Origin: an uncultured bacterium
GTDB taxonomy: Bacteria > Patescibacteriota > Minisyncoccia > UBA6257 > GWB1-50-10
NCBI GenBank assembly: GCA_963722655.1
Contig: CAVRNT010000001.1
Span: 244,994-308,993 of the forward strand
Direction of reading: 5' to 3'
Length of the DNA: 64,000 nt
The notes below the pieces were generated by a model. It saw only the letters and a program-made list of their open reading frames with translations. It was not told the origin of the DNA and searched no databases. Position 1 is the first letter of the stretch; every line of letters starts with the position of its first letter. Shown here piece by piece: positions 7,172 to 63,167 of this stretch. The translations under genes and the position numbers were made by a program.

Positions 7172-7203
7172 AAAACCCGCCCGAAGAGGCGGGTTTTTTT
7201 GTC
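7172..7203. terminator. bidirectional rho-independent terminator shared by nrdJ and the convergent tRNA-Lys
   Basis: aaaaaCCCGCCcgaagagGCGGGttttttt: GC hairpin flanked by an A-run and a T-run. Confidence 0.75.
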
Positions 7204-7274
7204 CCCCGGACAGGATTCGAACCTGTGACCCACTGCTTAAAAGGCAGGTGCTCTACCAACTGAGCTACCGGGGG
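7202..7274 (-). tRNA. tRNA-Lys (anticodon TTT)
   Basis: The reverse complement folds as a cloverleaf CCCCCGGTAGCTCAGTTGGTAGAGCACCTGCCTTTTAAGCAG...GGTTCGAATCC...CCGGGGGA; anticodon loop CTTTTAA; CCA is not encoded. Confidence 0.85.
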
Positions 7275-7962: not shown

Positions 7963-8034
7963 TCCCCGGTAGCTCAGTGGTAGAGCGGCGCTCTGTTAAA
8001 GCGATGGTCGTAGGTTCGAATCCTACCCGGGGAG
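7963..8034 (+). tRNA. tRNA-Asn (anticodon GTT)
   Basis: Cloverleaf TCCCCGG-TA-GCTC-AGTGGTA-GAGC-G-GCGCT-CTGTTAA-AGCGA-TGGTC-GTAGG-TTCGAAT-CCTAC-CCGGGGA-G; anticodon GTT is flanked by U33 and A37. Confidence 0.85.
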
Positions 8035-9618
8035 CATTACTGGATTTCGGGCATACAAATGCCCGATTTTCTTTTTATTCGCGTGCTTTTTAGCAGGTTC
8101 TAACCCTGCGGATATTTCTTGCGCTTCTTTTGCCGCAGTTTGTATCGGGAACAGCAGATTATCCAAAGAAACACTCAATTTTTTGTCTTTTAGGGTGAGG
8201 TCCGAACCTAACGCCATAAAAATCCCTTTTTTCACTTCCATATCCTTCGTGGTAGCGAATATCTGCCGGGCCTTCTCTGCGAAGTTAAGGCCGCGCTCAG
8301 CAATTTCAAGCCAGTTCTCAACGCGCTTATCCGTATCTTTAAGCAGTTCCTGAAGCCGCTCTTTCTCCGCGAGTATTGTTTCCTTCTTGCTTTTGAACTC
8401 GTCCTCGGTAATCTCGCCGTTGGCACGCATATCAATCAAATTGTCTCCTCTACGTACGCACGCCTCGTATTCACGCCTCTGGTTGCCGTAAATGCGCTCC
8501 CGGTCCTCAACCTCCTTCTCGTTCATCTGCCGCAATCGCGCCATCGCCCACTCCTTGAAATCGGTTGGGATTTCAAGCTTGGCAAGCTCGGCGGTAATCT
8601 GCTTTTCAAGCTCGTCCTTCTCTATGGCCTGTTGCGTGCAATTCGGGTCCCTGCGTTTGGTGCAGTGATAGTAGGTGTAGTGATGCACATTGCCGTTTTT
8701 CTGGTGCTTCATTTTTTCCTCGGCGGTAATCATCGCACCGCACTCGCCGCAATGTATCGGCCCGCGATATACGATGTCGCGCTTTTGCCCTCGCGGTTGC
8801 GAACGCCTGCCGAGCAGAAACTGTATCCGGTCATACTCCTCTCGCGTAATCATCGGCTTGTGTATGCCCTTATGCCATTCTCCGCTTCCCACCGGATATT
8901 CAAACTCCCCGTAATAGAATGGGCGGGTTAGAAGCAGATAGATATTACTTCTGCTAAAAGGTTTGCCGTTAGGCATACGAAGGCCCCAATCTTTCGTTGC
9001 TATCTCCAAAATGCGCGGCGGCGTGTATTTACCAGTAAGCATCAGGTCAAATATCTTCCGCACAATATCAAAACGCTCCGGGTCTTCGTGAATGGTTTTG
9101 TATCCTTTCTCCCCGTATTTATCGTTCAAGTAGCCAACGGGAGCCGGTGCAGGATAAATGCCCATACGCGCCTTCTGCCCTAGTCCGCGTTTCACATCGC
9201 GTCCTTTCTTTGCGCTCTCGTATTGCGATTGTGAGAGCGCCATTTGAAGCATCCAAATACCCTCGGGTGTGTTCTCAAAGTGATAGGTTGCGAGCTTGAG
9301 GTCTTCTATAACCCCAGTGCGTATCATATAGGTAATTTCGCCAGCGTCTTTCTCGTTGCGCGAGAGACGGTCTGGATGCCACGCAACCAATCCGGTCCGC
9401 TCGCCGCTTTTTATCCGTTCAAGCATATCCGCGAACGCGGGGCGATTGAACGGCTTGAACGCGCTCGCCTTATCTTCCACAAACTCAACGTCCAATTTTC
9501 CGAACACTTCATTGAGCTTGTCTTTCTGCGCGGGGATGGACAACGCTTGTCTCTCCTCGCCCTCGGTGGATTTTCTTACATACGCGAAGTATTTAATTTT
9601 ATTTGTGTCTTTACTCAT
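8023..9618 (-). CDS. large serine recombinase (serine integrase)
   Basis: MSKDTNKIKYFAYVRKSTEGEE gives the catalytic Ser in a resolvase-type N-domain, followed by a recombinase domain and a Cys-rich zinc ribbon (HCGECGA...YYHCTKRRDPNC) and a coiled-coil; about 531 aa; stop overlaps tRNA-Asn. Confidence 0.85.
   Translation of the reverse strand: MSKDTNKIKYFAYVRKSTEGEERQALSIPAQKDKLNEVFGKLDVEFVEDKASAFKPFNRPAFADMLERIKSGERTGLVAWHPDRLSRNEKDAGEITYMIRTGVIEDLKLATYHFENTPEGIWMLQMALSQSQYESAKKGRDVKRGLGQKARMGIYPAPAPVGYLNDKYGEKGYKTIHEDPERFDIVRKIFDLMLTGKYTPPRILEIATKDWGLRMPNGKPFSRSNIYLLLTRPFYYGEFEYPVGSGEWHKGIHKPMITREEYDRIQFLLGRRSQPRGQKRDIVYRGPIHCGECGAMITAEEKMKHQKNGNVHHYTYYHCTKRRDPNCTQQAIEKDELEKQITAELAKLEIPTDFKEWAMARLRQMNEKEVEDRERIYGNQRREYEACVRRGDNLIDMRANGEITEDEFKSKKETILAEKERLQELLKDTDKRVENWLEIAERGLNFAEKARQIFATTKDMEVKKGIFMALGSDLTLKDKKLSVSLDNLLFPIQTAAKEAQEISAGLEPAKKHANKKKIGHLYARNPVMLPG
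8045..8077 (+). terminator. tRNA-Asn terminator hairpin encoded inside the recombinase 3' coding region
   Basis: TCGGGCATacaaATGCCCGA followed by ttttcttttt. Confidence 0.55.
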
Positions 9619-9771
9619 ATGAAAAACCCGAAAGGGACGGTCTGGTTGACCCGATATGTGCAATCGCAAGGACTGACAGCATAGCGGCAGACCGCCCCTT
9701 CCGGGCCACTATGCTTTTTGGTAATAAAAATGCCTTGCGTGTCTTCGTACATAATCGGGTCAACATTATCA

Positions 9772-10959
9772 TTATACGCCGTTTTCCAATGAATCCAAGT
9801 TAATGGGCTCAAACCGCTTAAATGCCTCATCAATAAAGGCGATGGTATTGGAATATGGCAACCCGTGCGTAAGCTCGGCAGAGGCCTCAATTTTGCGCGT
9901 TAGGCGCTCGCTGTGGTCCGTATTCCATACGCTGAATATGGCTCTGCGCGTCTCCTTCGCTCCGTGGTCTTGTATGGTCCGCGCCAATCCGTAAGAAGTC
10001 AGCGCCCGGTTCATACTATGCGCCTCGCCGCCGAGCTTCTTCGCCTGTGAAAATATGTGCAAGAGCAATGCTAAGTCATCAGTGGGGCCAAGAAGCGCGA
10101 GCTGGTTTTCCGGCCGCCGGATAAGCCCGTGCCAAGAATTAAGTATTATTGTTTTGCAAAGGTTTGGGGTGAAAAGGTCTTTGAAAGCAATAAATGTTTT
10201 TGGATTTCTCCCCAGTGCGGCATTTATCTCGCGCATCACCGTCTGCCCCTTTTTAAGCCGGTATTCATACCGAAACACCTCTTGTTTCTGCAATCCAAAG
10301 CGTTCAATTATGGCTCGTTCGTAATCAATGCGCCCCTTATCTTTGCGTTTTATTTTCGGGCGCATAGCATCCGCAATTTTGTCGTAAAAAACCCGTTCAA
10401 CTGTGCCCGAGTAGATATGAAGCACCCGCCCGTTTTTGAACTCAACTTTTGTAATGTCCACTACCTTGCTTATATCCACGCGCTGGAGTTCCGCCAGTGC
10501 CTCCTGCATTCGTATGTCTCGTGGCAGTGGCACGTTCTTGCAGAAATGGACCGCCGAGACATAGGCACTAGCCACTATATTGCTCTCAATCGCTATACCA
10601 ACGCTATTTAGCGCTTCTTTGAAAGCGTAAAGCACCTTATCAAAATCAAGTTCGGACACCTCCTGCAAGCTGTTTCTATTAAGCAGTTTCGGTACCGAGA
10701 ACTCGGCCTTGAGGATATACCGCACGGCATCGCGGCTTTCGGTAAGCGCCTCAAGAACTTCTACTCTCGGCCGGTAGCCGTTCTGATAAGGCGGCTTCAA
10801 GATAAAACGCCGGAGGTAGGGATGGGTAGATTGCTGGGATTGTTTTTCGGTCTGCGAAAGCTGAAAATAATTACGTTTTGAGAACTCGGGTAGAAACCAC
10901 GATAGCTCCGTAATTTGAAACTTATCCGCTCCGTAGATTTTGATAATGACCGTATCCAT
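9772..10959 (-). CDS. hypothetical protein with Rep_trans-like motifs (rolling-circle replication initiator / MobT-type relaxase family, tentative)
   Basis: 395 aa; segments ...GRVLHIYSGTVERVFYDKI... and ...EVFRYEYRLKKGQ... resemble the Rep_trans motifs (YxGsr..lRiYdK and wRvEiElk); lies next to the integrase as in IMEs/ICEs. Confidence 0.45.
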   Translation of the reverse strand: MDTVIIKIYGADKFQITELSWFLPEFSKRNYFQLSQTEKQSQQSTHPYLRRFILKPPYQNGYRPRVEVLEALTESRDAVRYILKAEFSVPKLLNRNSLQEVSELDFDKVLYAFKEALNSVGIAIESNIVASAYVSAVHFCKNVPLPRDIRMQEALAELQRVDISKVVDITKVEFKNGRVLHIYSGTVERVFYDKIADAMRPKIKRKDKGRIDYERAIIERFGLQKQEVFRYEYRLKKGQTVMREINAALGRNPKTFIAFKDLFTPNLCKTIILNSWHGLIRRPENQLALLGPTDDLALLLHIFSQAKKLGGEAHSMNRALTSYGLARTIQDHGAKETRRAIFSVWNTDHSERLTRKIEASAELTHGLPYSNTIAFIDEAFKRFEPINLDSLENGV

Positions 10960-11065
10960 AGTCGTTTTTAATGTTGTCGGTGTTTTTCAAGGAATCCGCT
11001 CCGTAGATTTTGATAATGACCGTATCCATAGTCGTTTTTAATGTTGTCGGTGTTTTTCAAGGAAT
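10924..11065. repeat. perfect 70-bp tandem duplication (2 copies) covering the start and upstream of the Rep_trans-like gene and the 3' end of the 70-aa ORF
   Basis: 10926-10995 and 10996-11065 are identical (ccgctccgtagattttgataatgaccgtatccatagtcgtttttaatgttgtcggtgtttttcaaggaat). Confidence 0.95.
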
Positions 11066-11250
11066 CCTTTAGTGGTTGGCGCAGGATTTTGCGCGTTTTT
11101 TTGTTCGCTTGCGACTGCACGGCTTACCACTTCAACCAAACGGATAAGCCGCAAGCCCTTTTCAAGTGCCTGCTCCTTGGTTATCTCAACCCCAAAATGC
11201 TTTTTATAAAGCATCTGGAACTCGGAAATGTTTTTGTCGGTAAGGTCCAT
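11038..11250 (-). CDS. small hypothetical protein (70 aa)
   Basis: ORF MDLTDKNISEFQMLYKKHFGVEITKEQALEKGLRLIRLVE...; predicted helical and possibly DNA-binding; its C-terminus lies in the tandem repeat. Confidence 0.4.
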   Translation of the reverse strand: MDLTDKNISEFQMLYKKHFGVEITKEQALEKGLRLIRLVEVVSRAVASEQKNAQNPAPTTKGFLEKHRQH

Positions 11251-11367
11251 AGTTATTCGCTGTTCATTGCGTCCCTACCCTATATGCTGAAAAATCAGCG
11301 AAATAAAAAAACGTTGTAATAACGGGGGTTCTTGGATACGCTGGAAAGAAAAAAGCCTTCTGATTTT

Positions 11368-13275
11368 TCAGAGGGCTTCTTCCTCATCATCTTCCTCACC
11401 GCCTTCAATCGCCTCATTTTCATTAAACCTACCACCTTGAGGCCAGATTTCTTCTTTTCTTAAAACTGGTTCCGGTAATATGGCGAACTTTGGTTTATAG
11501 CGGTCGTGTATATCGTGGAATGGTTCATCGTTAGTTTTGAAAATCTCCTTTAACCACTTCACGAGTAATTTTTTCGCTTGCTGGACATTGTTCACAGATA
11601 AGGTTTTGTTTTTTGTAATCATTGGACGCATATTTTCTGCTGATGCATATTTGAAATCACTTGCCGATAGCGTGGATAAGGCACATAGAAAACCCCATTG
11701 CCGGTCTGGCTTCTGCTGGCGCTTACCGACAAAAAAACGAAGTTGAATGTAATCGGCAGTTATGATGTGGCTATTGTCATAAAAAATCTCAATCTCTTGC
11801 CGCCCTTCTTTTATCTTGAGTGTAACTTTCTCCCATTGGACCGGCTCTGGGAATGACAGCTCAATTGGCGACTCTCGCTTTTTACTCTTTGCATTAGGAG
11901 CTTCTCCTACAAATCTGACCGGCACTTCTGGCATAGCTGTGATTTCAATTTTCTGCACCGTTTGTTGAATCTGCTGGTTGTTTGGAGCAAAAGACATATT
12001 TTTGAGGCTCCTAACAATTGCTTCATCAAGTGCATCAATAATTTTTTTGCTTTTACCTTGCCATTTTTCTTCTGCCGAAATATCAATCAAATCCTTCTTC
12101 TCGCTACCGGCGACTCTCGTTGCGTTTGCAATACGCTCAATAAGCTTGGAGCTCTTCTTCATCTCTTTACTTATCTCTGTAGCGTCTGGTTTCAACGCAG
12201 ATATTTTGAGAAGAAATGCGCTTACGAGGTCTGAAGGACTTTCCGCTTTTTTTGCCTTCGCTTCAATATGAGCTGTTGCAAGTGAAGTAAATGGTCGCGC
12301 ATAGGTTTCTTTAAGGGGGTCAAGCTTGCCCCATTCTACCATCTCCTCAACTTTTCCAATGATTTCAAGATATAACCCCTCAAGCTCTTTATGGTCCAAA
12401 GCTTTATTATTTTCGTACGCGTTTACCAAAATAATCAATTGGCTCCAAAACACCCACAATCGCGCTATATCTTTAGGAGACCACACTTTATATGCCACCA
12501 GTTCAACATCTTTGCCATCCGAATCCGTCCACTCGTTAATCCCCAAATCCAACGCTTCTTCTGTGGGACCTATGTATAGTTTCCCATCTTTAATTTGTAT
12601 GCGGTCATATTTTAGCCATCCGTTATATTTCTCCTGCGTTTCTTTAGCTTTTGTCTCATCTCCCTCAAAAAATAATGGATGGACGGCTTCTTCAATGACT
12701 TTATATAAGGCCCGGCGGACCTTCTGGTTTGATGAGGTGTTTAACACTCGGAAAGCGCTGAAAAGCATCCTCCACTTGGTGTTTGGATACACAATAATCG
12801 TTGCTGGAGCACCACGCTCTTTAAGCAAATCAATAAGCTCTGGCCCAGTTTTGCGCTCGGCAATGTCTTTTGCAATAAGTTCAAGTGTTTGTGCGCGGAT
12901 TACCCCATCGTTATTCCTATCACTCAATAACTTCTTTATTTTCCCTCTGTCTGAAATGCGCAGATATGTCTTCAGAGGATGGACAGTTTCTATACCGCCG
13001 CTTTTGACAATTTCAACTTCAACCTTCATCCCCGGTCCCTTTTGCTCGGAGATTTTGATGCCACCCATATTTTCCAAGAAACGCCAGAATGAATTATTGT
13101 TTATCAGCGTCTCGGTGCTTTGGGGCTCGCCGGGGAAATGATTGATTATACTTACCTCGGTATCGGTTTCATCAGCCCAAGTTTTTTCGGCAATATCAAT
13201 AAGGCTTTCCAGATAGCGGAATATCTGGGGCGTAAAATCAAAGGGAAGTTTTTCTTTATCGTAGTAGAAGGCCAT
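11368..13275 (-). CDS. large hypothetical protein (about 635 aa), no recognisable domain, acidic C-terminal tail
   Basis: Long uninterrupted ORF in an AT-rich island (unlikely to be spurious at this GC); ATG at 13275 or TTG at 13320; ends ...EGGEEDDEEEAL; divergent from the Type III mod. Confidence 0.55.
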   Translation of the reverse strand: MAFYYDKEKLPFDFTPQIFRYLESLIDIAEKTWADETDTEVSIINHFPGEPQSTETLINNNSFWRFLENMGGIKISEQKGPGMKVEVEIVKSGGIETVHPLKTYLRISDRGKIKKLLSDRNNDGVIRAQTLELIAKDIAERKTGPELIDLLKERGAPATIIVYPNTKWRMLFSAFRVLNTSSNQKVRRALYKVIEEAVHPLFFEGDETKAKETQEKYNGWLKYDRIQIKDGKLYIGPTEEALDLGINEWTDSDGKDVELVAYKVWSPKDIARLWVFWSQLIILVNAYENNKALDHKELEGLYLEIIGKVEEMVEWGKLDPLKETYARPFTSLATAHIEAKAKKAESPSDLVSAFLLKISALKPDATEISKEMKKSSKLIERIANATRVAGSEKKDLIDISAEEKWQGKSKKIIDALDEAIVRSLKNMSFAPNNQQIQQTVQKIEITAMPEVPVRFVGEAPNAKSKKRESPIELSFPEPVQWEKVTLKIKEGRQEIEIFYDNSHIITADYIQLRFFVGKRQQKPDRQWGFLCALSTLSASDFKYASAENMRPMITKNKTLSVNNVQQAKKLLVKWLKEIFKTNDEPFHDIHDRYKPKFAILPEPVLRKEEIWPQGGRFNENEAIEGGEEDDEEEAL

Positions 13276-13399
13276 TGTAATTATTAACTTCAATCTACTG
13301 CTTTTTGCTGATTTTCTCAACGATTTTATGCTAAACTGAAATTACAACTAAATATGCGATAGAGGCCTAACCCCCGTGAGCAAAACTCCGAGGTATGGC

Positions 13400-13545
13400 A
13401 CACATAAGCCCCATCCCTGATACTAAACTCCGCGTTTAGCAACTCAGGGATGGGCTATGTCTCCGAAAGGAGGTGTAGGGCCGAAAGGTCTAGCTAGCGC
13501 GGAGTTTCGTGCTTCTCGCTAGCGACATAGCAACCCATCCCTCTA
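13400..13545 (+). promoter_or_regulatory. structured leader / operator region upstream of the Type III mod gene
   Basis: 11-bp stem CCCATCCCTGA/TCAGGGATGGG with a nested hairpin CTAAACtccgcGTTTAG; second hairpin GCTAGCG...CGCTAGC; AAACTCCGCG and CGCGGAGTTT are mutually complementary; CCCATCCCT occurs three times; strong AAGGAGGTG SD; 21-codon uORF 13457-13522. Confidence 0.4.
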
Positions 13546-15272
13546 TGTCCAAAAAATTAAAATCACAATCAACCATTCCGGCTGTAGCCGCTAAGCCGAA
13601 ATACGACAACTGGTCCAAAGAGCAACTTATTGACGAGGTGGCACGGCTTCGCAAGCGCAAGAAATACGGGCTTGTCTGGGAAGAAAAGCTAGAAAATGTC
13701 GTTGAGCAATGCAAGACAGAATTGCCGGTGCTCAAAGAAGTGAAAAATAAAGCGATTGCGAAAGATAAAAATGGCCCTGTGAACATTCTCATTGAGGGAG
13801 ACAATTACCACGCCTTATCGGTTTTGAATTACACCCACAAAGGCAAGATTGATGTCATCTACATTGACCCGCCATATAATACCGGCGCGCGTGATTGGAA
13901 ATACAACAACGATTATGTGGACGTTAACGACCAGTGGCGACATAGCAAATGGATTTTAATGATGGAGCATAGGTTACAACTGACAAAAAAACTTCTATCT
14001 CAAAACGGATTCATTATATGTGCAATTGACCATAACGAACTTTTCGCGCTTGGTCTTTTGATGGATGAGATTTTTGGTGAAAGTAATAGGTTGGGAACGA
14101 TTACAGTTGTGCACAAGCCAGAAGGAAGACAGTTCGCTAATTTCTTTAGTCCGTCAAATGAGTTTATGTTGGTGTATGCCAAAAATAGAACTTCGGCACA
14201 ATTTGAGAACATCGTTTTAAGTAAAGAGAAGGCGGATGAGTTTGACCTAGTAGATGAGAAGGGAAAGTACAAACTTCAGAACTTCATAAGATTGACTGAT
14301 GGTAAATATAGTTTGCGGAAAAATAAACCCGAGGGATATTACCCCATTTATGTAAGTAATGACTTAGCACATTTCAGTTTAACTAAAAAGAAGGGATACG
14401 ATGAAACACTGCCCATCACGAACAAGGGCGTGGAAAGAGTTTGGAAAACTTTTGGAGATACTTTTATGGATAAGGTAGGCAATGAGGCAATCGTGGCAAA
14501 AAGAGAAAACGGGAAAATAGTATTATACGAAAAATTAAGGCCGAGTGAAGTTCTGGTTACGCATTGGATTAAGAAACAGTATCACGGGTATCACTTTGGC
14601 ACGAAGTTATTAGAAACGATTTTAGGCAAAAAGTTGTTTGATTTCCCCAAATCTCTTTACTTGGTTCTAGATATTTTGAAACTTACCACAAGAAGAAACG
14701 CTATAATTTTAGATTTTTTCGCTGGCTCTGGCACTACTGGGCACGCTGTCCTTGAATTGAATAAGGAGGACGGTGGTAATCGCCGGTTTATTCTCTGCAC
14801 GAACAACGAAAATAACATCGCCACAGAAGTTTGTTATCCACGCGTAGCAAAAGTAATTGATGGATATAAAGATGCGGCGGGGAAAACAATTGCTGGTATC
14901 AAAAGCAATCTCAAATACTTCCGCACGGCATTTGTGGGCGCAGAGCCGAATGACAAAAACAAAGAAGCCCTAACTAAGAAGGCAACTGAAATGCTTTGTA
15001 TGCGCGAGGACACTTTTGAGTCGGTAAAAGAAACGGGTGCGGTAAAGATATTCAAAAACTCAAAACAGCATACCGGCATTATCTTTGATGAGGATGCTAT
15101 CCCTGCGTTAAAAAAAGAAATTGTGAAGATTGACGGCGCGTGGAGCATCTATATCTTCTCTCTTGGCGATGACACTTTTGAGGACGAGTTTGAGGATATG
15201 AAACAAAAGATAACCGTTGCGCCGATACCCGAGGCGATTTTGCGGGTCTACCGGCGCATATTCAAACCATAA
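13509..15272 (+). CDS. mod: Type III restriction-modification system methyltransferase (Mod), N6-adenine DNA methylase
   Basis: IYIDPPYNTG (DPPY motif IV), FAGSGTTG (motif I), ILIEGDNYHAL N-terminal motif typical of Type III Mod / Type IIG methylases; GTG start at 13509 (GGAG SD) or ATG at 13545. Confidence 0.8.
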   Translation: MLLASDIATHPSMSKKLKSQSTIPAVAAKPKYDNWSKEQLIDEVARLRKRKKYGLVWEEKLENVVEQCKTELPVLKEVKNKAIAKDKNGPVNILIEGDNYHALSVLNYTHKGKIDVIYIDPPYNTGARDWKYNNDYVDVNDQWRHSKWILMMEHRLQLTKKLLSQNGFIICAIDHNELFALGLLMDEIFGESNRLGTITVVHKPEGRQFANFFSPSNEFMLVYAKNRTSAQFENIVLSKEKADEFDLVDEKGKYKLQNFIRLTDGKYSLRKNKPEGYYPIYVSNDLAHFSLTKKKGYDETLPITNKGVERVWKTFGDTFMDKVGNEAIVAKRENGKIVLYEKLRPSEVLVTHWIKKQYHGYHFGTKLLETILGKKLFDFPKSLYLVLDILKLTTRRNAIILDFFAGSGTTGHAVLELNKEDGGNRRFILCTNNENNIATEVCYPRVAKVIDGYKDAAGKTIAGIKSNLKYFRTAFVGAEPNDKNKEALTKKATEMLCMREDTFESVKETGAVKIFKNSKQHTGIIFDEDAIPALKKEIVKIDGAWSIYIFSLGDDTFEDEFEDMKQKITVAPIPEAILRVYRRIFKP

Positions 15273-15275
15273 AAT

Positions 15276-48971: not shown

Positions 48972-49300
48972 AGATCTGGAACGCGACCAAGGGAATAGCG
49001 CTTTCGGAGAACGTCCTGGTCTTAAAGACGCTCGCCGAGAAGGCGAGCGGCCTCATCGACGTGGAGGAGCCGCACGCCGCCTTCTTCAAGACCCGTTTCG
49101 GCGTTCACACCTTCGGGATGAGCCGGCCGCTCGACTGCCTGATTTTGGACGATTTGAACCGCGTCCGCCGGATCAAGGAGAACTTGCAGCCGAACAAAAT
49201 GTTCTTCTATCCGCCGGTTTGGAAGAACGTGGTGGAGCTCCCGGCGGGGACTGTCAGGATGACAGGAACGGAGGTAGATGATAAAATCGAAATAACATGA
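48968..49300 (+). CDS. DUF192 domain protein
   Basis: 110 aa; GL...EEPHAAFFKT...HTFGMSRPLDCLILDD pattern. Confidence 0.65.
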   Translation: MKIWNATKGIALSENVLVLKTLAEKASGLIDVEEPHAAFFKTRFGVHTFGMSRPLDCLILDDLNRVRRIKENLQPNKMFFYPPVWKNVVELPAGTVRMTGTEVDDKIEIT

Positions 49301-49737
49301 AAAACAATATGCCGATAATCATCGTCGCGTTAGTTCTCGTCGTTATCATCGTGGTTTTGGTCATCGTCTTCGGACAAAAGCCGGCGACGCAGCCGACTAG
49401 TGGTCTCCAGATTACGGACGTGACCATGGGTACCGGGACCGTCGCCGAGGCGGGGGATACCGTCACCGTTAACTATGTCGGTTCGTTCCCCAACGGTCAG
49501 GTCTTTGACGCCTCCGCCGATCACGGTACGAGCGGCTTCGCTTTCGTCCTCGGGGCGGGCGATGTCATCAAGGGCTGGGATGAAGGCGTTTTGGGAATGA
49601 AGGTCGGCGGCGAGCGAAAGCTCGTCGTGCCGCCGGAACTGGGCTACGGTGCGCAGGGCGCGGGAGGCGGCGTCATCCCGCCGAACGCGACGCTCGATTT
49701 CGATATCACTCTCCTCAACGTCCAGAAGGCGCAATAA
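49297..49737 (+). CDS. FKBP-type peptidyl-prolyl cis-trans isomerase (membrane-anchored)
   Basis: N-terminal TM then FKBP domain (VTVNYVGSFPNGQVFDAS...GAGDVIKGWDEGVLGMKVGGERKLVVPPELGYG). Confidence 0.85.
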   Translation: MKNNMPIIIVALVLVVIIVVLVIVFGQKPATQPTSGLQITDVTMGTGTVAEAGDTVTVNYVGSFPNGQVFDASADHGTSGFAFVLGAGDVIKGWDEGVLGMKVGGERKLVVPPELGYGAQGAGGGVIPPNATLDFDITLLNVQKAQ

Positions 49738-49820
49738 TCCCGCACCGCACATTCTGCCAGTCGGGCGCTCCGGCCCGCTAGACCAAGTCCTACCCTCCTG
49801 GCAGAATGTGCGGTGCGGGA
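49738..49820. repeat. perfect 23-bp inverted repeat with a 37-nt spacer
   Basis: tCCCGCACCGCACATTCTGCCAG ...37 nt... CTGGCAGAATGTGCGGTGCGGGa in the convergent intergenic region FKBP / DUF378. Confidence 0.9.
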
Positions 49821-49837
49821 ATTACGGTCGAAACAAA

Positions 49838-49868
49838 AAACCCGCCCATGAGGCGGGCTTTTCGTTCC
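49838..49868. terminator. bidirectional rho-independent terminator
   Basis: aaaaaaCCCGCCcatgaGGCGGGcttttcg. Confidence 0.7.
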
Positions 49869-49877
49869 AAATTGGTT

Positions 49878-50105
49878 TTAGGCCTGCGGCATCGCCGCCG
49901 ATCTCTTCCCGGAGAAGAGGAAACTAATCCCCCAGAGACCGGAAATGCCGACCAAGATGTAAATGATGGTCGAAATGACCGACCCCATCCCGAAGATCGC
50001 GTCCACGACGTTGAAGTTAAAGACCCCCACTAACCCCCAGTTTATGGAGCCGATAACCATCAAAAGCATCGCGATCCATTTGAGCGTTGACATTTGTTGG
50101 TTCAA
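49878..50105 (-). CDS. DUF378 family small membrane protein
   Basis: 75 aa; INWGLVGVFNFNVVDAIFG motif. Confidence 0.65.
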   Translation of the reverse strand: MNQQMSTLKWIAMLLMVIGSINWGLVGVFNFNVVDAIFGMGSVISTIIYILVGISGLWGISFLFSGKRSAAMPQA

Positions 50106-62312: not shown

Positions 62313-63161
62313 ATGATCTCAATAAGACGGATTTACGACAAAAGCGCCCCGCGAGGCGGTTACCGCGTCCTGGTGGACCGGCTTTGGCCGCGGGGCGTCT
62401 CCAAAAAAGAGGCCAAGCTGGACCTTTGGTCCAAGGAGATCGCCCCGATGGAAGGATTGCGGAAATGGTTCGGTCACGCGCCGGCGAAATGGCCGGCCTT
62501 CCGCAAGAAATATATCGCGGAGCTCAAGGGAAACCTGATGATGGTGGAGTTACTGCGGGCCAAGTTGGCGGGGGAAAAGAGCGTCACGTTGCTTTTCGCC
62601 GCGGAGGACGAGAAACGGAACAACGCCGTCGTCCTCAAGGAGTTCCTGAAGAGCGGCCCGCGCTTCAGGCCCAAACCCGCGCACTTGAAGGTCGGCTCGA
62701 TCGCTCCGGAGATCGAACTGCCGGACCAAAACGGGGAATGGCACAAGCTTTCCTACCATCGGGGCGGTTGGGTTCTCGTTTATTTCTATCCCAAAGACGA
62801 CACGCCGGGGTGCACCAAAGAAGCATGCCTGATCCGCGACTACTTCCCGGATTTTCGGAAACTGAAGGCCAAGGTCTTCGGCGTAAGCGTCGATTCCGTC
62901 CTAAGCCACGCCAAATTCGCCAAGAAGTACAAATTACCCTTTACGCTTCTCGCGGATGAGGGAAAGCTCGCCGTTCGGGCCTACGGCGTTTGGGGCAAGA
63001 AAAAGTTTATGGGGCGCGTTTACGAGGGAACGCTCCGCACCTCCTTCCTCATTGATCCCAAAGGCAAGATCCGGAAGATCTACCGGAACGTGAATCCGGC
63101 CATCCATGCCTCCGAAGTTCTCTCCGACCTCCAAAAAATTATCGAGGTTCAACCTCGATAA
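62313..63161 (+). CDS. DUF488 domain fused to Bcp-type peroxiredoxin (AhpC/TSA family)
   Basis: N-terminal YRVLVDRLWPRG (DUF488) and C-terminal VLVYFYPKDDTPGCTKEAC peroxidatic-Cys motif with LADEGKLAVRAYGV. Confidence 0.75.
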   Translation: MISIRRIYDKSAPRGGYRVLVDRLWPRGVSKKEAKLDLWSKEIAPMEGLRKWFGHAPAKWPAFRKKYIAELKGNLMMVELLRAKLAGEKSVTLLFAAEDEKRNNAVVLKEFLKSGPRFRPKPAHLKVGSIAPEIELPDQNGEWHKLSYHRGGWVLVYFYPKDDTPGCTKEACLIRDYFPDFRKLKAKVFGVSVDSVLSHAKFAKKYKLPFTLLADEGKLAVRAYGVWGKKKFMGRVYEGTLRTSFLIDPKGKIRKIYRNVNPAIHASEVLSDLQKIIEVQPR

Positions 63162-63167
63162 TTTTCC

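What the first reader, a model, noticed from the sequence alone, without database searches (positions are those of the whole stretch)
49738..49868. Perfect 23-bp inverted repeat (37-nt spacer) followed by a bidirectional terminator between convergent genes
tCCCGCACCGCACATTCTGCCAG and its exact reverse complement, separated by a GC-rich 37-nt spacer, lie downstream of the FKBP gene. A standard bidirectional terminator follows 15 nt later. A perfect 23-bp stem is far more than a terminator needs. It could be a MITE-like or REP-like element, an RNA-stabilising stem, or a protein-binding palindrome.
Basis: seen in the sequence. Interest (0 to 1): 0.5.

Follow-up and report, generated by a model that had tools for sequence, protein, structure and literature searches.

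The report
Polar hairpin repeat element of Patescibacteria
The perfect 23-bp inverted repeat is one copy of an apparently undescribed family of ~85-90-nt hairpin repeats in Adlerbacteria-like candidate-phyla bacteria, which sit between genes and also in frame inside essential genes, much like the palindromic elements of Rickettsia.

Summary
A perfect 23-bp inverted repeat with a 37-nt spacer starts right after the FKBP stop codon, 15 nt before a conserved bidirectional terminator. The conserved part is the spacer.

Searching with the spacer motif found 28 metagenome loci, and covariance models found more. Every copy has a conserved apical core flanked by about 22-25 bp arms. Arm sequences are almost unrelated between copies, yet 91% of arm positions stay paired. 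G·U pairs outnumber A·C 50 to 11, so one strand is the one under selection to fold; here that is the window's minus strand.

Close relatives lack the element at this locus. Others carry one or two copies there, in either orientation. Further copies lie in frame inside IF-2, tRNA-guanine transglycosylase, a class-V aminotransferase and a glycosyltransferase. Inside infB the core is conserved at third codon positions where the rest of the gene is near saturation.

There was no Rfam match, and I found no prior description.

Best reading: a non-autonomous, invertible palindromic element resembling Rickettsia palindromic elements, here a passenger in the FKBP 3' UTR. A host function cannot be excluded.

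The parts
49738..49820 (-). The whole hairpin element (83 nt). The sense strand, meaning the better-folding strand that matches the family model, is the window's minus strand.
   Evidence: Covariance model R1 scores 92.8 bits (E about 2e-21) on the minus strand and 31 bits on the plus strand. R2 scores 92.1 bits. MFE is -70.8 kcal/mol for the sense strand and -59.9 for the antisense strand.
49798..49820 (-).
   Evidence: Perfect 23-bp complement of 49738-49760. Arm sequences differ between family copies but stay paired.
49761..49797 (-). Conserved apical core. Sense strand: GA-GGGU-AGGACUU-GGUC UAGCG GGCC-GGAGC-GCCC-GA. That is a GA/GA-bracketed 4-bp helix P2, an asymmetric internal loop (UARGAC.../...GGAGC), and an apical hairpin P3 of variable length.
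   Evidence: Matches the motif GGGTARGACTTGG-N-GGAGCGCCCGA, which found 28 metagenome loci. Mean pairwise identity is 0.86 for the core against 0.37-0.40 for the arms. P2 and P3 covary.
49738..49760 (-). It abuts the FKBP stop codon.
49835..49867 (.). Native bidirectional intrinsic terminator: A-tract, stem-loop 49841-49857, T-tract. It is not part of the element.
   Evidence: Terminator scan hits on both strands. Conserved in L001, L002, L083-L086 and L091 whether or not the element is present.
49297..49737 (+). FKBP-type peptidyl-prolyl isomerase gene. Its stop codon is immediately followed by the element.
   Evidence: Pfam FKBP_C, E = 9.5e-33. ORF list.
49878..50105 (-). DUF378 small membrane protein gene, convergent with FKBP. 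The element lies 57 nt downstream of its stop codon, beyond the terminator, in the sense orientation.
   Evidence: Pfam DUF378, E = 6.2e-23. ORF list.

Best explanation
The inverted repeat is one copy of a dispersed family of polar hairpin repeat elements of about 83-100 nt, found in Adlerbacteria/Paceibacteria-like Patescibacteria.

Shown: each copy is a 22-25-bp stem whose sequence is free but whose pairing is kept. The stem carries a conserved apical core: a GA/GA-bracketed 4-bp helix, a UARGAC.../...GGAGC internal loop, and a variable apical hairpin. One strand is the one selected to fold. Copies are gained and lost between related genomes. They occur in both orientations at the same loci. 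They lie in intergenic spacers, usually within 0-20 nt of a stop codon, or in frame inside conserved genes.

Inferred: it is a non-autonomous palindromic element that behaves like a Rickettsia palindromic element (RPE). It spreads, or once spread, through a single-stranded intermediate of the sense strand, either ssDNA or RNA. In that intermediate the stem only has to present the core to an unidentified trans-acting protein. It can flip in place by recombination or template switching between its arms.

Inferred for this locus: the element inserted between the FKBP stop codon and the pre-existing bidirectional terminator. There it is a passenger that adds a very stable stem-loop, in antisense form, to the FKBP 3' UTR. 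The terminator, not the inverted repeat, ends transcription.
For: Family and multiple copies. The spacer motif found 28 metagenome loci with several copies per contig, including at least 4 on one 339-kb contig. Covariance models add diverged copies.

Structure. On a sequence-only alignment 79.9% of cells are paired, against 66% in shuffles and 32-48% when partners are slid. On the model alignment 91.1% are paired, 27 of 32 pairs show changes on both sides, and 0 of 500 shuffles reach the observed values. Arm identity is 0.28-0.40 and core identity 0.65-0.86.

Polarity. All 27 unique copies fold better on the sense strand. In P1, G·U outnumbers A·C 50 to 11, p = 5e-7. From the per-copy counts combined by hand with the orientation classes, the bias holds whatever the orientation of the host gene.

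Gain and loss at this locus. Same-species contigs carry an identical copy. L001 has only the terminator and L002 has an unrelated short hairpin. L083-L086 have one full copy plus a remnant, or two copies, in opposite orientations.

In-frame copies with Pfam or PDB matches on both sides: IF-2, TGT (about 29 extra aa relative to solved TGTs), a PMT-family glycosyltransferase and a class-V aminotransferase.

Flip. IF-2 homologues carry the insertion at the same linker position. At least 14 of 120 have it in the antisense frame and at least 4 in the sense frame. L120-L122 confirm this at the DNA level. I worked out by hand that this frame pair is what an in-place flip of the whole element predicts.

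Not a terminator. The hairpin has no U-tract after it, and the conserved terminator is separate.
Against: No transposase, target-site duplication, conserved termini or empty-versus-filled site within one population was found, so mobility is inferred only from distribution.

Copies within one genome are very diverged, so there is no sign of a recent burst.

Inside infB the core is conserved at third codon positions (10-12 of 12-14) while the rest of the gene is at 0.38-0.45. Orthologous copies keep their pairing through compensatory changes. This looks like constraint at the site itself, which a decaying selfish insertion would not show. It could instead reflect a host function or gene conversion.

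The core motif was used to collect most copies, so its conservation is overestimated, although the six copies found without it still show it. Gene contexts rest partly on crude ORF calls.
Confidence: 0.55

Rival explanations
1. A host-functional structured nucleic-acid motif. On this reading the hairpins are cis-acting signals kept by selection at each site. They would act as RNA or ssDNA recognised by a host protein, for example for processing, replication, recombination or nucleoid organisation, and would not be selfish insertions.
For: Constraint at the nucleotide level in place: third-position identity in the core is 71-86% against 38-45% in the rest of infB, and orthologous copies show compensatory arm changes. 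The insertion persists across IF-2 homologues down to about 62% identity. Arms are near saturation while the core and the pairing are kept. Copies within a genome are highly diverged. Strand polarity is clear. Tandem G·A motifs recur at fixed stem positions (57 G·A or A·G cells in P1).
Against: Copies occur in both orientations relative to host genes and inside ORFs in several reading frames, which is hard to reconcile with an mRNA-level role. Close relatives lack the element at this locus. No conserved promoter lies upstream and no U-tract downstream. Orientation is not linked to local GC skew. No particular gene class is associated with the copies.
Confidence: 0.3
2. A locus-specific accessory stem for FKBP, acting as an extra terminator or as a 3'-UTR stabilising hairpin that evolved at this gene.
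For: The element begins right after the FKBP stop codon and would be part of the FKBP transcript before the terminator. The hairpin is very stable on either strand.
Against: There is no U-tract after the stem. The better-folding, model-matching strand is the opposite one. The same element occurs at dozens of unrelated loci and inside ORFs. Relatives with the same gene pair manage with the terminator alone.
Confidence: 0.05
3. A solitary TIGR-like or snoRNA-like stem-loop guide RNA unit, in which variable palindromic stems flank a loop bound by a Nop-domain Tas protein, as described for CPR stem-loop arrays.
For: Variable but consistently palindromic stems flanking a loop are a described feature of TIGR stem-loop arrays, some of them in CPR bacteria (PMC12045711, read). 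G·A/A·G tandems resemble K-turn and box C/D junctions (my own knowledge).
Against: TIGR units occur in tandem arrays next to a tas gene, and their loops carry two variable 8-12-nt spacers. Here copies are solitary and dispersed, with one in 64 kb. The loop is the conserved part. Copies sit inside ORFs.
Confidence: 0.03
4. A chance or neutral palindrome unique to this locus.
For: The 23-mer itself is unique in the window and in both large collections. The element is absent from L001 and L002.
Against: None of 100 shuffles produced the repeat. The spacer defines a family of more than 35 copies with strong covariation.
Confidence: 0.01

Closest known systems
Rickettsia palindromic elements (RPEs)
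   Same: Both are short palindromic repeats dispersed in a reduced genome. Both are found in intergenic DNA and inserted in frame in unrelated housekeeping genes, so that they are read as part of the protein (summarised in PMC10969869). For both, the means of spread is unknown.
   Different: The phylum is different and I know of no sequence relation. These elements are shorter (about 85-90 nt against 100-150 nt). Here only the apical core is conserved while the arms are free to vary. The element has a clear strand polarity and appears to flip in place. According to that review, RPE copies encode a conserved peptide, whereas these copies are read in at least four frames.
REP / BIME and REPIN elements (mobilised by RAYT transposases)
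   Same: Both are hairpin-forming repeats that lie just downstream of genes and next to terminators. In both, the structure is maintained and recognition is strand-specific; REPs are recognised as ssDNA hairpins by HUH enzymes (my own knowledge).
   Different: In REPs and REPINs the arms are conserved and the loop is variable, which is the reverse of this family. REPs are 20-40 nt, strictly extragenic, carry a GTAG or CGTC tag (PMC3733652 abstract) and number in the hundreds. None of these features holds here.
ERIC and Correia-type MITEs
   Same: Both are imperfect palindromes of about 100-200 bp in transcribed intergenic regions, found in either orientation. Correia elements can invert and are RNase III substrates (PMC10969869).
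   Different: Those elements have conserved terminal inverted repeats and TA target duplications. I found neither here.
Palindromic insertions in organelle coding genes (coding palindromes of Nematomorpha mitochondria; yeast mitochondrial GC clusters)
   Same: Hairpin-forming inverted repeats tolerated inside protein-coding genes (PMC6649704 abstract; the yeast GC clusters are from my own knowledge).
   Different: Those are organellar, have no conserved polar apical core, and have a different size range.
TIGR stem-loop arrays (tigRNA units)
   Same: Variable palindromic stems flank a loop, and some examples are in CPR bacteria (PMC12045711).
   Different: Those are arrayed next to a tas gene and their loops carry variable dual spacers. 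Here the copies are solitary and the loop is conserved.

Membership tests
Any Rfam 15 RNA family | A covariance-model match at or above the family's gathering score | tested here: not met
   The gathering-threshold scan of the whole window found only 2 tRNAs and LOOT RNA. An E<=10 scan of 49600-50000 gave only generic hairpin and terminator hits far below gathering scores.
Intrinsic terminator | A G+C-rich stem followed directly by a U-tract | tested here: not met
   The inverted repeat is followed by ATTACGG on the + strand and TTATTGCG on the - strand. The terminator scan calls only the separate hairpin at 49841-49857.
Classical MITE | Terminal inverted repeats with a conserved sequence shared between copies | tested here: not met
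   Mean pairwise arm identity is 0.37-0.40, and 0.28 among copies not selected by the motif. The 23-mer has no other match.
Classical MITE | A direct target-site duplication flanking each copy | tested here: not met
   The flanks of 33 copies, listed at the outermost base pair, show no shared or duplicated flank. Boundaries are uncertain to a few nt.
REP / REPIN | A conserved 20-40-nt REP arm with a GTAG or CGTC tag, and a variable loop | tested here: not met
   The arms are variable and the loop is conserved. No tag appears at the termini.
REP / REPIN | Strictly extragenic location | tested here: not met
   In-frame copies lie inside IF-2, TGT, PMT and aminotransferase genes.
REP / REPIN | A cognate RAYT (Y1/HUH transposase) gene in the genome | not tested
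   Only the neighbours of copies and part of the window were scanned with Pfam, and none was a transposase. Whole genomes were not available.
Rickettsia palindromic elements | Palindromic repeats dispersed in intergenic DNA and also inserted in frame in unrelated protein genes | tested here: met
Rickettsia palindromic elements | Sequence membership in one of the RPE families, and occurrence in Rickettsia | not tested
   No RPE sequences were compared. The host here is Patescibacteria, so I claim behavioural resemblance only.
Integron attC site | R''/R' core sites (RYYYAAC ... GTTRRRY) at the base of the hairpin | tested here: not met
   The window element contains no GTT trinucleotide on either strand (read directly).
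Integron attC site | Arrays of gene cassettes, each followed by a site, near an intI gene | tested here: not met
   There is one copy in 64 kb. The neighbours are syntenic housekeeping genes.
TIGR stem-loop array unit | [quoted passage not shown] | tested here: not met
   Copies are solitary and the loop is the conserved part. The definition comes from PMC12045711. The presence of a tas gene elsewhere in the genome was not tested.

The most novel reading that the evidence does not exclude
On this reading the elements are not junk. The polar apical core would be a recognition module for an unknown trans-acting factor acting on single-stranded nucleic acid. The family would then be a new kind of functional structured motif, or a new hairpin-based mobile and invertible element. 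It would be maintained under nucleotide-level selection even inside essential coding sequences, in either orientation, in ultra-small CPR genomes.
Probability: 0.3. Interest if true: 0.8.

Novelty: new variant of a known kind. Interest (0 to 1): 0.6.

Why it matters
Patescibacteria have tiny, streamlined genomes that are thought to carry very little repetitive or selfish DNA. This family shows that a structured repeat persists there, and does so inside essential translation genes such as infB.

The element keeps its hairpin and a roughly 37-nt core under nucleotide-level constraint. It therefore gives a second, independent system alongside the Rickettsia palindromic elements for asking two questions: how palindromic elements enter and survive in coding sequence, and what recognises them.

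There are practical consequences too. These roughly 29-aa insertions will confuse protein alignments and domain boundaries in CPR proteins. Motif searches based on the arms will miss the family. The covariance model built here could be used to annotate it.

Tried and rejected
- Exact 23-mer searches: no other copy in the window with up to 3 mismatches, in 185,579 reference genomes or in metagenome contigs. The arms are not the conserved part.
- Rfam at gathering and at permissive thresholds: nothing.
- Viral contigs scanned with the core motif: 0 hits.
- Other copies in the window with two covariance models, filters off: only this one.
- Target-site duplications or conserved flanks: none.
- A promoter upstream or a U-tract downstream of the sense strand: no shared motif.
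- A link between element orientation and local GC skew: 10 against 13, uninformative.
- A protein database search with the element-encoded peptides: 20 candidates, none at E<=10. The peptides are too short to reach significance.
- The exact FKBP protein with the long start codon is not on record. The 142-aa version found the same-species contigs.
- attC, REP, MITE, TIGR and terminator memberships were considered and rejected on defining features (see the membership table).
- A mutational explanation for the G·U excess, through transcription-linked deamination, was rejected. By a hand tally of the per-copy counts, grouped by orientation, the bias follows the orientation of the core and not that of the host gene.
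- Literature searches for palindromic, MITE or structured-RNA repeats in Patescibacteria, CPR or Parcubacteria found no description.

Full report
**Observation**

The window has a perfect 23-bp inverted repeat. The arms are 49738-49760 and 49798-49820, and the spacer 49761-49797 is 37 nt. The 23-mer occurs once on each strand and nowhere else in the window, even with 3 mismatches allowed. None of 100 shuffles produced a match. It is the longest local inverted repeat in the 64 kb.

The left arm begins at the base after the TAA stop (49735-49737) of an FKBP-type isomerase gene (49297-49737, +). Fifteen nt after the right arm lies an A-tract, the stem-loop 49841-49857 and a T-tract, called as a terminator on both strands. 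After that comes the 3' end of a convergent DUF378 gene (49878-50105, -).

**Where the window comes from, and the orthologous loci**

The neighbouring genes are isochorismatase, VIT1, GDPD, DUF192, FKBP, DUF378, Nramp and HisRS. This order is syntenic with Patescibacteria MAGs. IF-2 homologues of related element-bearing contigs are labelled Adlerbacteria or Paceibacterota.

The orthologous loci differ as follows:
- Two contigs of the same species from other samples (L081, L082) carry an identical element.
- L001, a reference genome from a related species (Nramp 78% identical), has only the terminator between FKBP and DUF378.
- L002 and L091 have an unrelated short hairpin plus the terminator.
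- L083/L084, L085 and L086 (FKBP 83-89% identical) have related elements at the same site.
- In that group, the spacer is nearly identical to the reverse complement of the window's spacer. The arms differ by compensatory changes and the orientation is inverted.
- L085 has two elements back to back in opposite orientations. L083 and L086 have one full element plus a remnant arm.

**The family**

The exact 23-mer has no match in 185,579 reference genomes or in the metagenome contigs. The spacer motif GGGTARGACTTGG-N(4-34)-GGAGCGCCCGA found 28 metagenome loci. These make up 27 unique copies once the window and its relatives are counted. Several contigs carry more than one copy, and one 339-kb contig has at least 4.

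Two covariance models (R1, R2) recovered all of these and found diverged copies that lack the exact motif:
- L085A, L105b, L093b, L095b, L006 and L007;
- later L120-L122.

The window itself has exactly one copy, even with filters off. About 0.85 Mb of other loci, fetched as Nramp relatives and mostly Patescibacteria MAGs, yielded only two copies. The family therefore appears restricted to one clade and is sparse, at roughly one copy per 50-100 kb. Nothing was found in viral contigs or in Rfam.

**Anatomy**

Every copy has the same parts, listed from the base outward:
- P1, a stem of about 22-25 bp;
- often a tandem G·A/A·G at a fixed position in that stem;
- a GA/GA-bracketed 4-bp helix, P2;
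- an asymmetric internal loop (UARGAC.../...GGAGC);
- an apical hairpin P3 of variable length, extended by 13 nt in L085B.

The evidence for this structure:

| Measure | Sequence-only MAFFT alignment | Model-fitted alignment |
|---|---|---|
| Cells paired | 79.9% | 91.1% |
| Shuffled control | 66% | 0 of 500 shuffles reach it |
| Partner slid 1-3 columns | 32-48% | 33-49% |
| Pairs changed on both sides | 25 of 32 | 27 of 32 (290 cells) |

The model-fitted alignment leans towards the model's structure, so the MAFFT figures are the more conservative.

The arms are almost unrelated in sequence. Their mean pairwise identity is 0.37-0.40, and 0.28 among copies not selected by the motif. The core is at 0.86, and 0.65-0.73 for the unselected copies. 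The window copy is unusually perfect: it has 23 Watson-Crick pairs, including the positions where most copies have G·A tandems.

**Polarity**

All 27 unique copies fold more stably on one strand. In P1, G·U pairs outnumber A·C 50 to 11, p = 5e-7. A hand tally of the per-copy counts, grouped by orientation, shows the bias follows the orientation of the core whichever way the host gene runs. Transcription-linked mutation bias therefore does not explain it. The sense strand in the window is the minus strand: R1 scores 92.8 bits there against 31 bits on the plus strand. A single-stranded form of that strand, RNA or ssDNA, is what is under constraint. G·T wobble pairs and tandem G·A pairs are tolerated in both RNA and DNA (my own knowledge), so I could not tell which.

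**Genomic context**

Intergenic copies sit in short spacers after or between housekeeping genes:
- RNase Y, an ABC transporter, NDK and DnaJ;
- PilB and PilC, CYTH/SmpB and PNPase;
- DsbA-like, LOG-like and holin-like genes, and fusA-tuf.

The element's 3' end usually abuts the 3' end of a converging gene at -4 to 20 nt (13 copies). When the element has the same sense as the upstream gene, the gap is usually 40-150 nt (p = 0.007). These distances rest partly on crude ORF calls. I found no shared upstream promoter, no downstream U-tract, no target-site duplication and no link to local GC skew.

**Copies inside genes**

Several copies lie in frame inside conserved genes, with domain matches on both sides:
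- IF-2, in the linker between domain II and the IF-2 domain. L093, L120 and L121 are antisense; L103 and L122 are sense.
- tRNA-guanine transglycosylase in L107. Residues 66-106 align to residues 64-75 of solved enzymes, an insertion of about 29 aa.
- A PMT-family glycosyltransferase, L095b.
- A class-V aminotransferase. L093b is sense. L102a is antisense, degenerate and carries an in-frame TAG. L102b is cut by the contig end.

The core is read in at least four different frames, so the conservation does not act at the protein level.

**In-place persistence and flipping**

Among the 120 best IF-2 homologues (62-100% identity), at least 14 carry the antisense-frame peptide (...ALRAARPSLTL...). 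At least 4 carry the sense-frame peptide (...EGKTWPSGPERPS...) at the same linker position. I worked out by hand that these two frames are exactly what a flip of the whole element at a fixed position predicts. The fusA-tuf spacer (L094 sense, L110 antisense) and the FKBP-DUF378 spacer also show both orientations.

A codon alignment of infB gives the following:

| Region | Third-position identity |
|---|---|
| Rest of infB | 0.38-0.45 |
| Element core | 10-12 of 12-14 |
| Arms, distant pairs | at background, pairing kept |

The arms keep their pairing through compensatory changes. This is nucleotide-level constraint or homogenisation at the site. A simple decaying insertion would not show it.

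**Interpretation**

The element is certainly not a chance palindrome, and it is not an FKBP-specific terminator. The terminator is the separate hairpin, which is conserved whether or not the element is present.

The best-supported reading (confidence 0.55) is a non-autonomous, invertible palindromic element that behaves like the Rickettsia palindromic elements: dispersed, intergenic or in frame within housekeeping genes, and with an unknown means of spread (PMC10969869). Its stem only has to present the polar apical core, in single-stranded form, to an unidentified factor. At this locus it would be a passenger inserted between the FKBP stop codon and the native terminator.

The main rival (0.3) is a host-functional structured motif. 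The in-place constraint and the deep divergence between copies favour that reading. Free orientation, location inside ORFs and absence from close relatives count against it.

REP/REPIN, classical MITE, attC, TIGR stem-loop unit and Rfam memberships all fail on defining features. Literature searches found no description of such repeats in Patescibacteria or other CPR bacteria.

**Caveats**

- Most copies were collected with the core motif, which inflates its apparent conservation.
- All sequences are metagenomic contigs.
- Gene contexts outside the Pfam-checked genes come from a crude ORF heuristic.
- Covariance-model E-values are rough.
- No whole genome, transcript or population data could be examined.

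Noticed in passing
window 8000-20500: A low-GC block (0.41-0.50 against about 0.59 elsewhere) lies next to two tRNA genes (7202-7274 -, 7963-8034 +). It encodes a large serine recombinase (8026-9669 -), a DNA methylase (13509-15269 +), a type III restriction/helicase subunit (15276-17510 +) and a SocA/Panacea antitoxin (17562-18035 +). It looks like an integrated island carrying a type III R-M system.
   Followed up: partly
window 13364-13491 (+): There is an Rfam LOOT RNA match (56.4 bits, gathering score 46.4) inside the island. It ends 18 nt upstream of the methylase ORF, which suggests a leader or cis-regulatory position for this orphan motif.
   Followed up: no
L002 2500-2535 and L091 1520-1552: At the site where the window has the element, these relatives have a different short perfect hairpin (AAGGAAGGAGGTCGGACCTCCTTCCTT and TGTAGGAGGTCCGACCTCCTACA) ahead of the conserved terminator. 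This could be a second terminator or another small element family.
   Followed up: no
L085 2969-3156; L083 2975-3099; L086 2962-3086: The FKBP-DUF378 spacer of these relatives holds two elements back to back in opposite orientations (L085), or one element plus a remnant arm (L083, L086). Copy B of L085 has a 13-nt extension of the apical hairpin.
   Followed up: yes
L102 401-487 and 1-49: One class-V aminotransferase gene carries two element copies. One is degenerate and contains an in-frame TAG. The gene may be a pseudogene, there may be an assembly error, or the element may be removed or bypassed. At the same position L093's orthologue has an open insertion of about 30 aa with no recognisable element.
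   Followed up: partly
L107 1127-2395 (TGT protein residues 131-159): A second insertion of about 26 aa relative to solved TGT structures, not recognised by the element model.
   Followed up: no
proteins P0122 and P0124 (IF-2 homologues), linker region: These two IF-2 proteins carry a different shared linker peptide (...ILKATPWEPELRRRLGES...) where others carry the element-derived peptide. This may be another inserted element family.
   Followed up: no
window 63135-63165: A perfect 15-bp palindrome (AAAATTATCGAGGTT / AACCTCGATAATTTT) with a 1-nt centre in an AT-rich stretch. It could be an operator or a terminator-like site.
   Followed up: no
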